NCBI GenBank assembly: GCA_964016885.1
Contig: OZ024751.1
Coordinates: 7,130,001 to 7,194,000 of the forward strand
Length of the DNA: 64,000 bases
Origin: Eledone cirrhosa
Lineage: Eukaryota
Direction: 5' to 3'
The notes beneath the pieces were generated by a model, which did no database searches, was not told the DNA's origin, and saw only the letters and a program-made list of their open reading frames with translations. The position numbers and the translations under genes were made by a program. This document shows, piece after piece, positions 44,273 through 49,020 of the stretch (positions within the stretch are counted from its first letter, which is position 1; each line of letters starts with the position of its first letter).

Positions 44273-47135
44273 TAACGAAGGAAATTTGGTAAGGAACCAG
44301 GTGGACCATAACGCACCAAAGTACTCAATACTTGGGGTAGTAGAGTGGGTAATAGGAACCAGTAAGACCTCGACGGCTGAGCTCAAGCCGTTTTGACGGC
44401 TAATTTTGGACTCAATGAAAATTTATCCTCGTATTTAAATAGCCGATCTTCTCAAGGGGTAATTCCATATATGGTCAAAGTGATTGTCAAAAATCAGTAG
44501 TAATTCAGTGATTGCAAATTAGTAGGGGAGATGGTGGCTAAACCTGCCAGTAGGAGAAAGAGGGGAGGGGGTGGAGAAGACCCAATCAAGCGTTGGTAGT
44601 GCCAGCTACAGCTGGGCATGAGGTCAAAGAAGATACTGGGGAGGGGGAGGGGGAGGAATTCGGAATGGTAGGTAGAACAATGGGGGGTAAAAATATATAT
44701 GAAAGAAAAAATACTGAGAGTGAAGAAAAGCGGTTAAGTGTAAAGAAAAAAGTAAAGCAAGTTCTACGACCTAGGTCTCTAGCTATTGTTAGGCTAGAAT
44801 AAATAAATAAAGAAAGAAAGAAGTAAAGAAATAAATAAAGAAATAACGAAATAAGTAAAAGAACTAGGTGGGACGGATTAGGCAAGGACCCTTTTAAGAG
44901 GTATAAGTACGTAAATGATACGGTGACGGGTCAACAAATGGGGCCAAAATACTAAAGAGACTACCACGAAATAAATAATAAAGGTTTCTATCCCGGGCAC
45001 AATGCCAGCAGCCACCCAGTGCAGCAAAGTGAACTAGTACGAGATAATAATTCTGAGTCCCGAAAAAAATATATACTAATGCTAACTCTAAAAGATCTAA
45101 AACAAGCTACATGAAAGTTCGTACGAAGTAAAGGTAGAATACGGAAAAATAAATTCAGAATCCACCACGCCCAAAAGAAAAGCGAAGAAAGAAATACTGA
45201 AACGAGAAAATAAGGCATAAGTGCCACTAAGAAATATAGAAGGCACGGAGAATAGTGGGAGCGGTCGGAAAAAGGGGGCAAGTATCCGGGGTCTAAACCA
45301 ACTGCTATAAAAGGCGGAGTCCGCCAAATCTATCATAGACTAGGGAAAGGGGTGGGGGTACTAAGGCTACAAGGGGCCAAAGGGCAGCCTCGGGTGGGCG
45401 AGAAAAGACGCCGACAAAGGAGAAGAGCTGGGGTAGAAGGACTAAGGAGGGAAGGGGGAAGGAAATAAAGGAAGCGATAAAAGAATAAAAAGAAGATCTT
45501 ACGTCTCCCTTGGCAAGCAAGGGTTACCCATTGCAAAATCGGCAAGTGGGGTGTTATAGCCCTAGTCTACCCCCCGGGTCATTATGGGCTTTGAGGGCGA
45601 GGTAAGTCCTACGCAATCTATGTTTACATGCAGTAACCAGTTCATCTTTCTTGTTTAGGAGTTGGTCCGTCGAAAACAGCATTTGTAAAGTTTCCTCCGA
45701 GCATAAATTGCACGGACGGCGTCCTCCCGTGTAAGAATTGGCTCTGGACAGTAATCTCCAAGTGAGATCATAGGTGATGTTGTTGTCCTTGAGGTCCCAT
45801 ATGTGGCCCGAAAGTGTAGTGGCGTGACGCCGGGCCGGGTTTCGGAAGGTATGTCTATGTTGGTATAGCCGGGTCTTGAAGTCACATGCGGTAAGTCCTA
45901 TATAGGCTTTGTTGGAGGTATCCGTCCTCACGTTGCACTGGTAGATCACATTACTGTCTCTGCATCTATTGTTGAGTGGGCAAATGGATCTATCCGGACA
46001 GTTACACCTCCTGGTCGGTTCTCCACTGCTATTTAGGTTATTTCTGCCATCGGGGTTGAGTTTTTTGTTGTTAGAGGAGACGATGTTTTGTGCGAAGTTT
46101 GGTGTAGTGCTGTAAGAGAGTTTGATGGTATTTTTGTTAATTATGTTGCGGTAGCGGTGTTGTAATGGGAAGTGTTTTTCAATGAGCCTAAAGAATAGTT
46201 TCCCGATGGGAGTTGTCACCTCTGCGTTGTGGGGAGGATTGAACCATGTTACATTGCGTGAGCGGCGGAGTCTCCTGCTGGTTCCGATAATGGGAGCTGG
46301 ACAGTAGGATATATCCTCCCGGAAACCACTCCGCTTGAGGGCCTGGTTGTAATAAGGCGCATGTTCATCGAATATCCGCTCATTAGCTGACAAACGGGAT
46401 ATGCGGAGGGAGATGTTTTTGACCAGGTGTTTGTGATGTTCCTAGGATGGTTTGATCGGCGGTGGATGTAGTGCAGATTGTCATTAGGTTTCCTGTATGG
46501 GTAGTACAGGTCGTTTTTGAGGTCGAGTGTCACATCCAGGAAGTTTACTCGGGTCAGGGACGTTTTTAGGGTTATTTTAAATCACCAGTCGCGGAAGAAT
46601 CTGATTAATTGTTTCCGGACCCGATCTGTACTACTGGGGTTGTACCCTTTAAGGGTAAGGAGCCCATCATCACGGTACAATCCACCACCGAATGCAGGAA
46701 ACATATCAGTGAGTTTGGCTATTAGGAATAATCCTATAAGATCTGTGACCTCCGCCGAATCCGTGGCGCCCATGCTGACGTCGAAGGGTGAGTCGGGAGC
46801 TCTTTTTATCCATTTAGAGTCGTCAAAGAGTAAGGCTGTCTTCCTGGCGTGGAGGATGATTTTCTTTCCTGGTCGGTGATGGGCACAAGTATTTCGGCGA
46901 AGTCCAAGGCGGCAGTAAGTAGCGGTAAGGTGATTGAAGCATAGTAGCTCTCTATGTCGAACTGTAAGAATTTAGTGTCTCGTTTATCCTCCATATTGCT
47001 GAACCATGAGATTACTTCCTGGGTGTTGATCCATAGGCTAAGTCGGACGTGTTGCTTGACTTTTGGTATCACCCGGTCTAGGATTTTTTTGCTGATTCTC
47101 CCTATGTCGGACTTCGTTGGGTTAATAAGCCTGAT
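44273..47135 (-). mobile_element. Naiad-type PLE (RT from motif 1/2 onward, GIY-YIG, 3'UTR, HHR relic 44367-44460)
   Basis: RLINPTKSDIGRISKKIL, FLQFDIESYY, MGATDSAEVTDLIG, GLYRDDGL, WFNPP, CNC...CPL, YIG, CNLC (ORFs 46806-47072, 46582-46773, 45554-46393); frameshifted. Confidence 0.95.
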
Positions 47136-49020
47136 AGAGGATTGGATAGCTTCTATTCCTAGGTTGTGGGGGATGTTGGAGAACCAACTACATCGAACGT
47201 CACTAGTAGGGTTTGTTCAGAAAGGGGCATATTAGGGAGGTGATTGAGCATATCTAGGTCGTCCCTTATATAGCTTTTGATGTGTTTGAGAAAAGGCTTG
47301 AGAAGGGTATCAATGAAGTTGCTAAGGCGGTGGGTTTCGCAAGCGGGGCCTGCTATTATAGGTCTTAATTTCAGATCATTGGGGGAGGGGACATTGATGA
47401 CTATGTCTGTGGCATCCTTGCATGCCTTACTTATTAATTCGCTTTTATGTACTTTAGGGATACCGTAGAAAAGGCTGGATTTACTTGAGAAGTCTGTGAT
47501 GAAGCTGAATTCCTTGTTAGTGAGTCCTTCTTTGTATTGGTTGATCAGAGTTTTTAGATTTCTCATAATTTTCTGTTGATTGTAGTGTTCAACCTTTTCG
47601 TAGTATGTTTCGTTTTCCAAAGTGGAGATCGCTAAGTTGATATAGAATTCTGTCTCCATTAGGACTACTGTACTCCCTTTATAAGCCTCTTTAATTGTAA
47701 TGGTTCTGTCGGTTTTTAATCTATTTAATTCTTCCCACACTTTCTTGTTGAGGTTTGGCTTGTGTTTTTGTCTGTGCAACTGTTGGTAAGGGAAGTTTGT
47801 GATGTGTTCACAGAATTCGTCCACGATTTTATTTCTACCTTTTGATGGGGTGTAATTGCTTCTATTTCTGGCTAATGATTAATCCTCATTGTACTGGTCG
47901 AATAGTTCTTCACTGAGTCGTAACTTTCTACAGAAGTCTGTGGTGTCTTCCTTCATCTCATAGTAGTTAGGACGTAGTGGGGTCGGTGTGAATTTAAGAC
48001 CTTTGGAGAGTAAGTTGATAAGGTTAGGTGTTGGTTCTGCACTAGTTAGATTGATAATGTTTATTACTATCGCTTTCTCCTCCCTGTCTTGTGTTATCTT
48101 GTTTGCCTGTATCTGTGTGCTGTGTCTAAAAAATGGTTGGGGTAGAGGGGTTGTCTGCGGATGTTAAGTGGTCTCCTGTGTTTGTTATATTCCTTGTTGT
48201 TGTAAAATGTGGTTCGGGTTGGTGGTTGTAGATTGAATGGGGTGCTCCTGTACTGCGACTATGGGTGTGTGTTTACATGTGCCATGTTGGATTGTGGTGT
48301 TATAGGTTCTACGTTGTTGGTTGTATCGTGTGGTGTGGGTTTGTTGTGTATTGTGGAAGCGAGAGTTGAGAAAATGGAAATTACCTTGCTGTCCCCTTGA
48401 AGCGGGGAAGTTGTTACATCTATCATGGTGGTGGTATCTTTTCCCTATGTTTGACGATGAGGGATCCGCGTAGTAGTTGAGTAATTTGGTATGGTGTCTC
48501 CTTGAAGGGGGAAAGTTGTAAATGTCATTCTGGGGGAGATGATTTCTAGGGTTTTGTTCCTTCTTATGGTCGCGAGGTTGGGAAGTTCATCTTCGGTGTG
48601 GTGCTTCCTTCTTCGTTTGTTAGTGGCTTGGGGGTTTGCGAAGTTTTTGTGCGGTTCAGTTATGGGTTTTCCTATTTTTATGAACGGGTTATTGCAGGTG
48701 TAATCCATTTGAAAATTCGATTCATAGTGTAGGAACCAATCGGTACTTTTTTCCCAGCGTTGAAGGGATTTCAGTTCTTCTCTGTTGCAGTCCCCTTTCC
48801 ATAATTTGGAGATCTTGTCTACCTTGGGGCCTTCAGTTTTATTGTTAATTTCCAGGAGGATCTCTTCATCGATGGTTTTGATTTTTTCCTCATTTGTCTG
48901 GGCCCTCAATTTAAGAAGTTCAATTTCTGTCTTCATTTTTTCCAATGCCATTCTTTCCCTAAGGTGTCTTTGAGGTTCGGGTTCATTTGGAATGGACTTT
49001 AAAAGCTTAGAAATGCGCAA
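47136..49020 (-). mobile_element. 5' half of a different (Neptune/Poseidon-like) PLE: upstream ORF plus N-terminal RT
   Basis: INLT...LLSKGLKFTPTP, IKEAYKG (DKG motif), FYGIPKVHK, LRPIIAG, YIRDD, LVTFDV...SNIPH; helical upstream ORF from 49020. Confidence 0.9.

What the first reader, a model, noticed from the sequence alone, without database searches (positions are those of the whole stretch)
46800..47500. Chimeric Penelope: two PLE lineages joined inside the RT
Seen on the minus strand: FYGIPKVHK...LRPIIAG...LVTFDV...SNIPHNLGIEAIQSL is followed at ~47135, with no spacer or microsatellite, by IRLINPTKSDIGRISKKIL...FLQFDIESYY. RT motifs 2-3 therefore occur twice, in two clade-specific versions (Neptune/Poseidon-like, then Naiad-like). 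Inference: template switching between different PLE RNAs, a deletion between tandem insertions, or a Naiad that captured another PLE's 5' end.
Basis: partly seen in the sequence, partly recalled or inferred. Interest (0 to 1): 0.7.

Follow-up and report, generated by a model that had tools for sequence, protein, structure and literature searches.

The report
Scar joining two dead Penelope retroelements
The front of one broken jumping gene is joined directly to the back of an unrelated one, most likely an ordinary one-off deletion scar in repeat-rich DNA rather than a new hybrid mobile element.

Summary
The join is real in the assembly and lies between 47141 and 47140 (minus strand). It is blunt and in frame, and RT motifs 2-3 occur twice. 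The two halves belong to different PLE clades (AU test p=0.002). The clade label is wrong: the 3' half is Hydra clade, not Naiad (C-terminal GIY-YIG, CxCX5C linker, no CCHH). The 5' half is Neptune-type. Both parent families are abundant in public runs, and each shows its own normal continuation exactly at the join. Both halves carry stops or frameshifts. The Neptune half also lacks its start, is capped by an inverted terminus, and has lost about 1.5 kb of 3' end that is nowhere in the window. A second spacer-less PLE-PLE joint lies at 3198/3199. Best reading (0.68): a one-off scar, made when a 5'-truncated Hydra copy inserted beside an older Neptune copy and intervening DNA was lost then or later. 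Cross-clade template switching (0.14), a misjoin (0.08) and a low-copy mobile chimera (0.06) remain open. No genome was held and no listed read bridges the join; the reads cap a chimeric subfamily only at about 9% of Neptune copies. Low interest.

The parts
49142..49157 (.). (TA)n tract at the outer 5' edge of the unit
   Evidence: (TA tract list)
48997..49141 (+). Inverted PLE 3' terminus with a degenerate hammerhead-like motif, facing the (TA)n. Inferred to be the Neptune family's own inverted 5'-truncated end copy.
   Evidence: Very high read depth in this bin (table 2). 9 reads join A body position 47507 to 49007, joint type not shown (table 5c). The ...AACCGGT... ending resembles GAAACCGGT in hammerheads of relatives L001, L003, L007, L010. 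U3-A8 core variant described in PMC4209133. Fold not significant, z=0.37. Family assignment is inferred.
48062..48996 (-). Half A, N-terminal/ORF1-like region of the Neptune-type element. 5'-truncated (relatives have about 160-200 more residues upstream), then a low-complexity N/H/T-rich stretch with frameshifts.
   Evidence: tblastn to 5 related loci, 34-43% identity, E 4e-25 to 2e-13; upstream frames of relatives; indels at 48303-48308 and 48551 (table 4)
47141..48061 (-). Half A, RT N-terminus to just past motif 3(A): GLKF, DKG (YKG in this copy), RT1, RT2, RT3. One stop at 47881 and a 4-nt deletion near 47182; cut at 47141.
   Evidence: reads show the DKG codon at 47683 (76 of 77 X12 reads) and extra bases at 47182 (219 of 224 reads)
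47140..47141 (-). The junction: blunt (0-nt exact microhomology, an AA dinucleotide one base off), in frame, no filler
   Evidence: loose ends at 47140 (3 X1 contigs) and 47141 (2 X1 and 4 X2 contigs); X4 contig 22 leaves at 47141 with 232 nt unaligned
45554..47140 (-). Half B, 5'-truncated Hydra-clade ORF: RT2 to RT7, thumb, CxCX5C linker, C-terminal GIY-YIG. Frameshifts near 46860 and 46427, stop at 46584.
   Evidence: reads show a sense codon at 46584 (801 of 801 and 298 of 299 X12 reads)
44275..45553 (-). Inferred 3' UTR and terminus of half B, with a hammerhead-like motif at 44459-44368 (U3-A8 core; AAAA where other copies have GAAA) and a tail beyond the common end at 44352
   Evidence: continuous read depth, X4 contig 17 spans 44390-44635, loose ends at 44352 run into (TA)n; copies at 8353-8552, 8889-9026, 3199-3362; fold z=-1.66, not significant. 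Linkage across 44635-45534 rests on depth only.
44153..44274 (.). (TA)n tract at the 3' end, the usual Hydra target
   Evidence: (TA)n preference in PMC8557442 section 11 and supplement

Best explanation
A single-locus scar. Step 1 (inferred): a Neptune-type PLE inserted into a (TA)n tract in the usual form, an inverted terminal piece plus a 5'-truncated direct copy. Step 2 (inferred): a Hydra-clade PLE primed at a (TA)n just downstream and was 5'-truncated like its neighbours. Step 3 (inferred): the Neptune copy's 3' 1.5 kb and any spacer were lost, either as a target-site deletion when the Hydra cDNA end was blunt-joined to a break inside the Neptune RT, or as a later deletion across the two neighbours. 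These two timings cannot be told apart here. Shown: two clades, a blunt join, both families abundant with normal continuations at the join, both halves decayed, and the missing Neptune 3' part absent from the window. The unit does nothing; the shared frame is a 1-in-3 chance.
For: Each family continues normally at exactly this point: Neptune-type reads go on into a W-L-D-type continuation, and Hydra-type contigs are preceded by the H-K...K-P-S-I-R context typical of the clade (table 7; 83 of 100 relatives have HK in the 16 residues before the motif). Both families show their own 3'-to-5' depth decline (table 2). All five other larger Hydra-type fragments in the window are 5'-truncated (starts near positions 280-510 of 700-aa relatives or profile), so B's 5' end needs no special cause. 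A carries an inverted terminus, the standard sign of a self-contained PLE insertion (PMC8557442 section 6). No Neptune 3' half lies downstream in the window. A second spacer-less joint, with both 3' ends cut, is at 3198/3199. A differs more from X4 contigs than B does (56 of 1693 against 21 of 1140 bases, Fisher p=0.018), which fits A being older. No protein carries both RT signatures: 0 of 153 B-type hits have the Neptune IPH motif, and 1 of 83 A-type hits matches the Hydra pattern, at residue 633, outside the RT. Target-site and insertion-mediated deletions are described for L1 (10.1101/2024.08.27.596794, passages).
Against: No read or contig bridging the join was listed, so the join is not independently confirmed. 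The join is in frame and the whole unit is flanked by (TA)n on both sides, as a single insertion would be. The reads do not exclude a small chimeric subfamily (bound about 9% of Neptune molecules). The age difference rests on 8 long contigs of another organism, chosen by the tool for length. That the inverted piece belongs to family A is inferred. The protein databases hold nothing closer than 55-58% to either half over its length, so the lack of a chimeric protein is weak evidence.
Confidence: 0.68

Rival explanations
1. One insertion event with a cross-clade template switch: the Hydra RT primed at (TA)n, copied its own RNA to 47140, then jumped to an internal site of a Neptune RNA (or a Neptune DNA copy elsewhere) and copied it to 48997.
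For: Blunt join with no filler; (TA)n at both outer ends. A Poseidon-clade RT starts reverse transcription inside its RNA without homology to the primer (PMC11167929, main text). An unchecked scan note reports a local PLE template switch in another genome (e1-7858584).
Against: The 5' end is capped by an inverted terminus that does not match B's end and looks Neptune-like, so both RNAs' 3' ends would have had to prime in one event. The halves appear to differ in divergence (p=0.018). The internal start in PMC11167929 is at a fixed site near the ORF start, not mid-RT. No source copy of A is in the window.
Confidence: 0.14
2. Assembly misjoin between two abundant repeats.
For: No bridging piece among those listed; both halves are high-copy repeats; the window's 4-nt deletion near 47182 is seen in no contig of X1, X2 or X4.
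Against: The halves share no sequence at the join on which an assembler could collapse them (0-nt overlap; 13 of 68 residues identical). The window has no N. The runs laid are low-depth or reduced-representation and hold under half of the stretch's words, so a single-copy site is not expected to show.
Confidence: 0.08
3. A low-copy mobile chimeric subfamily: an in-frame Neptune N-terminus and fingers fused to a Hydra RT core and endonuclease, or a non-autonomous unit moved in trans by Hydra proteins through B's intact 3' end. This locus would be a decayed copy.
For: Frame is kept across the join. B's 3' end and hammerhead-like motif are present. In the double-digest run up to 23 plus 108 molecules are of classes that could be joined.
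Against: Those molecules are equally explained by normal Hydra copies, and 19 of the 23 and 95 of 100 lack the window's base at 47047. 220 of 223 molecules at 47141 end at a restriction site that exists only in the normal Neptune continuation. The unit lacks A's start and any sense pLTR. No chimeric protein among 236 relatives. 0 of 80 Neptune-type loci hold a strong Hydra-type domain. One junction copy in 64 kb.
Confidence: 0.06

Closest known systems
Hydra clade of C-terminal EN+ Penelope-like elements, e.g. Hydra-1_Obim of Octopus bimaculoides (Craig et al. 2021, PMC8557442; section 11 and supplement part 2 read)
   Same: Half B: RLINP at RT2, C-terminal GIY-YIG, CxCX5C linker, no CCHH, CxxC and CxH motifs, (TA)n target
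   Different: 5'-truncated and decayed. The 3' region of about 1.3 kb would make the full element longer than the usual under 3 kb. Its hammerhead-like motif has the U3-A8 core and does not match the Hydra-1_Obim hammerhead row, so it is probably another family.
Neptune clade PLEs (PMC8557442 sections 3 and 12; the name is applied by motifs of relatives, not by a tree with named references)
   Same: Half A: GxKF and DKG motifs; relatives have the CX2-5CxxC linker (48 of 48) and two cysteines between GIY and YIG (46 of 48)
   Different: Cut after RT3(A); its own linker and endonuclease are gone; Nematis could not be formally excluded
Complex PLE insertions: partial tandems, inverted 5'-truncated end copies and tails (PMC8557442 section 6; PMC11167929)
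   Same: Inverted terminus at the 5' side, tail beyond the common 3' end, (TA)n flanks
   Different: Those structures join pieces of one family; here two clades meet inside the RT
L1 target-site deletions and L1-mediated deletions (10.1101/2024.08.27.596794, passages); L1 chimeras with resident elements and U6-L1 template-switch chimeras (recalled, not read)
   Same: A 5'-truncated new copy joined to pre-existing DNA with loss of the sequence between
   Different: Shown for LINE-1, not for PLEs; here the partner is another retroelement clade and there is no homology at the join

Membership tests
Naiad (half B) | GIY-YIG endonuclease N-terminal to the RT | tested here: not met
   The endonuclease follows RT and thumb, 46000-45602; definition
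Naiad (half B) | CCHH motif with two cysteines between GIY and YIG | tested here: not met
   One cysteine between VIY and YIG; 0 of 17 long relatives have two
Naiad (half B) | About 20 extra residues (IFD) between RT3 and RT4 | tested here: not met
   RT3 to RT4 spacing is 62 columns in the B profile against about 66 in the A profile (motif positions)
Naiad (half B) | CxC and DKA motifs upstream of the RT core | not testable with these tools
   That part is missing from this copy; long relatives have DK[TS] in 16 of 17
Hydra clade (half B) | C-terminal GIY-YIG without CCHH | tested here: met
Hydra clade (half B) | CxCX5C linker; CxxC and CxH around the catalytic E and N | tested here: met
   CNCPDRSIC, CNLC and CKH in the 46441-45557 frame
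Hydra clade (half B) | RT groups with Hydra-type RTs | tested here: met
   100/100 with 17 long relatives. The relatives are unnamed; the name rests on RLINP occurring only in Hydra-clade entries, 12 of 12.
Hydra clade (half B) | RWK and DKT motifs | not testable with these tools
   Lost by 5' truncation; relatives 13 of 17 and 16 of 17
Hydra clade (half B) | (TA)n target | tested here: met
   The 3' end abuts (TA)n at 44274
Hydra clade (half B) | Canonical hammerhead near the 3' end | tested here: inconclusive
   U3-A8 variant motif by eye at 44459-44368; no Rfam hit; fold z=-1.66
Neptune (half A) | GxKF/Y and DKG motifs | tested here: met
   GLKF in the window; DKG in the reads at 47683
Neptune (half A) | CX2-5CxxC linker plus CCHH in a C-terminal endonuclease (separates it from Penelope/Poseidon) | tested here: inconclusive
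   Absent from this cut copy; present in 48 of 48 and 46 of 48 long relatives
Neptune (half A) | RT phylogeny with named Neptune, Nematis and Poseidon references | not tested
   No named references were in the tree; Nematis is not formally excluded
Mobile chimeric retroelement | Same junction at several loci | tested here: inconclusive
   One copy in the window; no genome held; reads bound it at about 9% of A molecules
Mobile chimeric retroelement | Intact fused ORF with start and sense pLTR | tested here: not met
   Stops at 47881 and 46584, several frameshifts, 5' end truncated and capped by an inverted piece

The most novel reading that the evidence does not exclude
An in-frame Neptune-Hydra fusion arose by template switching or recombination between two deeply split PLE clades and spread as a small subfamily, carrying two sets of RT fingers motifs; this locus is one decayed copy. 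It would be direct evidence for the cross-clade module exchange that PMC8557442 (section 17, passages) infers for PLE evolution.
Probability: 0.06. Interest if true: 0.6.

Novelty: new member of a known kind. Interest (0 to 1): 0.14.

Why it matters
As a one-off scar it matters little. It is a reminder that in PLE-rich genomes gene models and repeat consensus sequences can be chimeric. It would matter if the junction proved multi-copy or was shown to be a template switch: PLE clades are thought to have exchanged domains, and my searches (listings only) showed no described case of two clades joined inside the RT. Hydra-clade elements are already recorded from Octopus, so the corrected clade is not new either.

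Tried and rejected
Whole-genome junction count: no genome is held, so it stays open. Pfam gave nothing useful on 9 fragments (one weak unrelated hit); PDB sequence searches gave only chance hits; Rfam found nothing in the window. No RNA holder was listed, which is no evidence on expression. Protein search with A's N-terminal region found nothing among 528 candidates, but related DNA loci did. The first metagenome scan found nothing. Names for the closest relatives could not be looked up. I first read '220 of 223 molecules end at 47141' as soft-clipping. All six listed begin sites are CATG and five of six listed end sites are AATT, so the run is a double digest and the pile marks an AATT present only in normal Neptune copies. 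It shows those copies are unjoined but does not test window-like copies, which would be cut at 47367; I replaced the claim by an upper bound. Simple nesting (B inside A with A resuming) was rejected: no A 3' half in the window. Both halves in one family was rejected (p-AU 0.002; 87 columns, LG+G4 without mixture, bootstrap not fully settled, 24 of 48 long A relatives used). Naiad was rejected (membership test). The idea that the Hydra fragment at 2.0-3.2 kb shares B's 3' end was dropped: the matching piece there is inverted. P0173's Hydra-like motif is a chance match outside the RT. Scan-note look-ups by place, sequence and one word set were empty. Supplements of the two bioRxiv preprints were not seen; they are unlikely to bear on the junction.
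Full report
Observation. On the minus strand a frame from 47878 to 47186 ends ...FYGIPKVHK...LRPIIAG...LLVTFDVV. After a frameshift, FSNIPHNLGIEAIQ runs with no stop or spacer into SIRLINPTKSDIG...FLQFDIESYY. The window has no N and the 20-base junction occurs once in it. No whole genome is held, so copy number could not be counted directly.

Two clades. A search with half A gave 83 relatives among 1550 candidates (best 55-57% identity over most of the query, the nearest named one from Octopus sinensis). A search with the junction frame gave 1517 hits, of which 150 were listed, plus 4 among 283 candidates. 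Profiles from 48 and 17 long relatives split the locus cleanly: A covers columns 3-308 of 746, B columns 190-702 of 708, with cross-scores of 22 bits or less. On the overlapping RT2-RT3 stretch the halves share 13 of 68 residues. They fall on opposite sides of a 100/100 branch, and holding them together is rejected (p-AU 0.002; 43 rows, 87 columns, 24 of the 48 A relatives used, bootstrap rough).

Which clades. Craig et al. 2021 (PMC8557442; I read the abstract, sections 3, 6, 11, 12 and 15, passages, supplement part 2 of 59 and two supplement searches) define Naiad by an N-terminal endonuclease. They define Hydra by a C-terminal one without CCHH, with a CxCX5C linker and CxxC/CxH motifs. Half B has the Hydra set, and 12 of 12 RLINP occurrences in the supplement are in Hydra-clade entries, Hydra-1_Obim of Octopus among them. 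So B is Hydra, not Naiad. Half A has GLKF and, in the reads, DKG. Its relatives carry the CX2-5CxxC linker (48 of 48) and two cysteines in the GIY-YIG core (46 of 48), which points to Neptune rather than Poseidon; Nematis was not tested against references. The host is probably a cephalopod (inference and from SINE-like repeats that I recognise from memory).

Anatomy. From the 5' side: (TA)n 49157-49142; an inverted 145-bp terminus with a degenerate hammerhead-like motif (48997-49141); the direct Neptune piece 48996-47141; the Hydra piece 47140-44275; (TA)n. The region 49005-48448 matches the N-terminal region of 5 related loci, which have about 160-200 more residues upstream, so A is 5'-truncated as well as 3'-cut. 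In relative L001 the cut point lies 1428 bp before the hammerhead, so about 1.5 kb of A is missing; no such piece lies in the window. Both terminal motifs have, or in other copies show, the U3-A8 hammerhead core described in PMC4209133 (passages), but neither folds significantly and Rfam is silent. That the inverted piece is A's own end is inferred from its likeness to relatives' hammerheads and from 9 reads that join A position 47507 to 49007 (joint type not shown).

Reads. Four of 14 listed runs were laid at 85% likeness (X1 and X2 are one sample). Both families cover all 30 bins and both decline towards their 5' ends. Loose ends lie exactly at the join: 3 X1 contigs carry a Hydra-type upstream part behind 47140; 2 X1 and 4 X2 contigs carry a Neptune-type continuation before 47141; a 1003-bp X4 contig leaves at 47141 with 232 bases unaligned. 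From these, the join is blunt, with no exact microhomology. With the family's four extra bases near 47182 (219 of 224 X12 reads at that place), A's frame runs into B's frame. The window's lesions are absent or rare in the reads: the stop at 46584 is a sense codon in 801 of 801 and 298 of 299 reads, and no contig of X1, X2 or X4 shows the 4-nt deletion. Against my reading: no listed piece bridges the join, and 31,565 pieces were not shown. X12 is a CATG/AATT double digest. Its 220 of 223 molecules ending at 47141 mark an AATT that only unjoined Neptune copies have; joined copies could hide among at most 23 plus 108 molecules, against 1435 at A's nearest cut site, about 9%. So a dominant chimeric family is excluded, a small one is not, and the join itself is unconfirmed.

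Background. The 64 kb hold five other larger Hydra-type fragments and one small one, all 5'-truncated. One abuts a simple repeat within 4 bases; for the others the nearest upstream simple tract is 43-369 bases away, and for B 2002 bases. At 3198/3199 a Hydra fragment cut just after its LNKK motif abuts, with no spacer, the cut end of an inverted copy of B's terminus. Spacer-less joints between PLE pieces, with loss of 3' ends, therefore occur twice in this window. No protein among 236 relatives holds both RT signatures, and 0 of 80 Neptune-type loci hold a strong Hydra domain; both are weak evidence because the databases lack close members.

Mechanism. Most likely (0.68) a Hydra copy primed at a (TA)n beside an older Neptune copy, and the Neptune 3' end was lost at integration or later. 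Target-site and insertion-mediated deletions are reported for L1 (10.1101/2024.08.27.596794, passages); I found no such report for PLEs (listings only). A is further from X4's contigs than B (56 of 1693 against 21 of 1140 bases, p=0.018; 8 tool-chosen contigs of another organism), which fits two events. A template switch in one event (0.14) fits the blunt join and the (TA)n at both ends, and PLE RT can start inside an RNA without homology (PMC11167929, parts 1-2 of 4 read); but it must also explain a non-B inverted end. A misjoin (0.08) has no shared sequence to collapse on. A low-copy mobile chimera (0.06) is the bold reading left open by the shared frame and the 9% bound. The retrozyme preprint (10.64898/2026.07.22.740005, passages) only confirmed the clade list.

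Verdict. Observation confirmed, clade label corrected to Neptune-type plus Hydra, interpretation partly supported. An ordinary rearrangement scar between two dead retroelements; interest 0.14.

Noticed in passing
window 2078-3362: A Hydra-type fragment cut just after its LNKK motif abuts, with no spacer, an inverted plus direct pair of the same terminus that ends half B; a second PLE-PLE joint with both 3' ends lost.
   Followed up: partly
window 44275-44460; copies at 3199-3362, 8353-8552, 8889-9026: A very abundant short PLE terminus (summed contig depth over 1.6 million in X1 and X2, more than ten times the rest) with a U3-A8 hammerhead-like core and a palindromic helix III. It occurs as inverted plus direct pairs in (TA)n, with two alternative ends (44352 and 44275). 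It may also spread as a non-autonomous unit.
   Followed up: partly
window 2.0-3.2, 7.1-7.3, 15.7-17.2, 20.9-22.5, 31.8-32.8, 40.6-41.1 and 45.5-47.1 kb: Seven Hydra-clade fragments in 64 kb, of several divergent families; the clade was described from few families, one of them in Octopus.
   Followed up: partly
window 49155-49386 and 50180-50411: 232-bp direct repeats (95% identical) around about 800 bp that include a SINE-like piece with copies at 29.1-31.6 kb; not part of the PLE unit.
   Followed up: no
window 43020-44140: Several inverted and direct copies of another repeat with a CTGACGA...GGAAA hammerhead-like motif (also at 3509, 27494, 27831); probably ends of a further PLE family.
   Followed up: no
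window 40381, 42379 and 56763: Compact hammerhead-like cores; the one at 40381 lies about 190 bases after the Hydra-type fragment at 40.6-41.1 kb.
   Followed up: no
window 53344-53997 (minus strand): ORF pieces that look like the N-terminal region of an RTE-type LINE (recalled likeness; no Pfam hit for 53347-53766).
   Followed up: no
L001, L003, L007: Neptune-type relatives assembled as circular or tandem units with a long ORF1-like region between the hammerhead and the RT ORF.
   Followed up: partly
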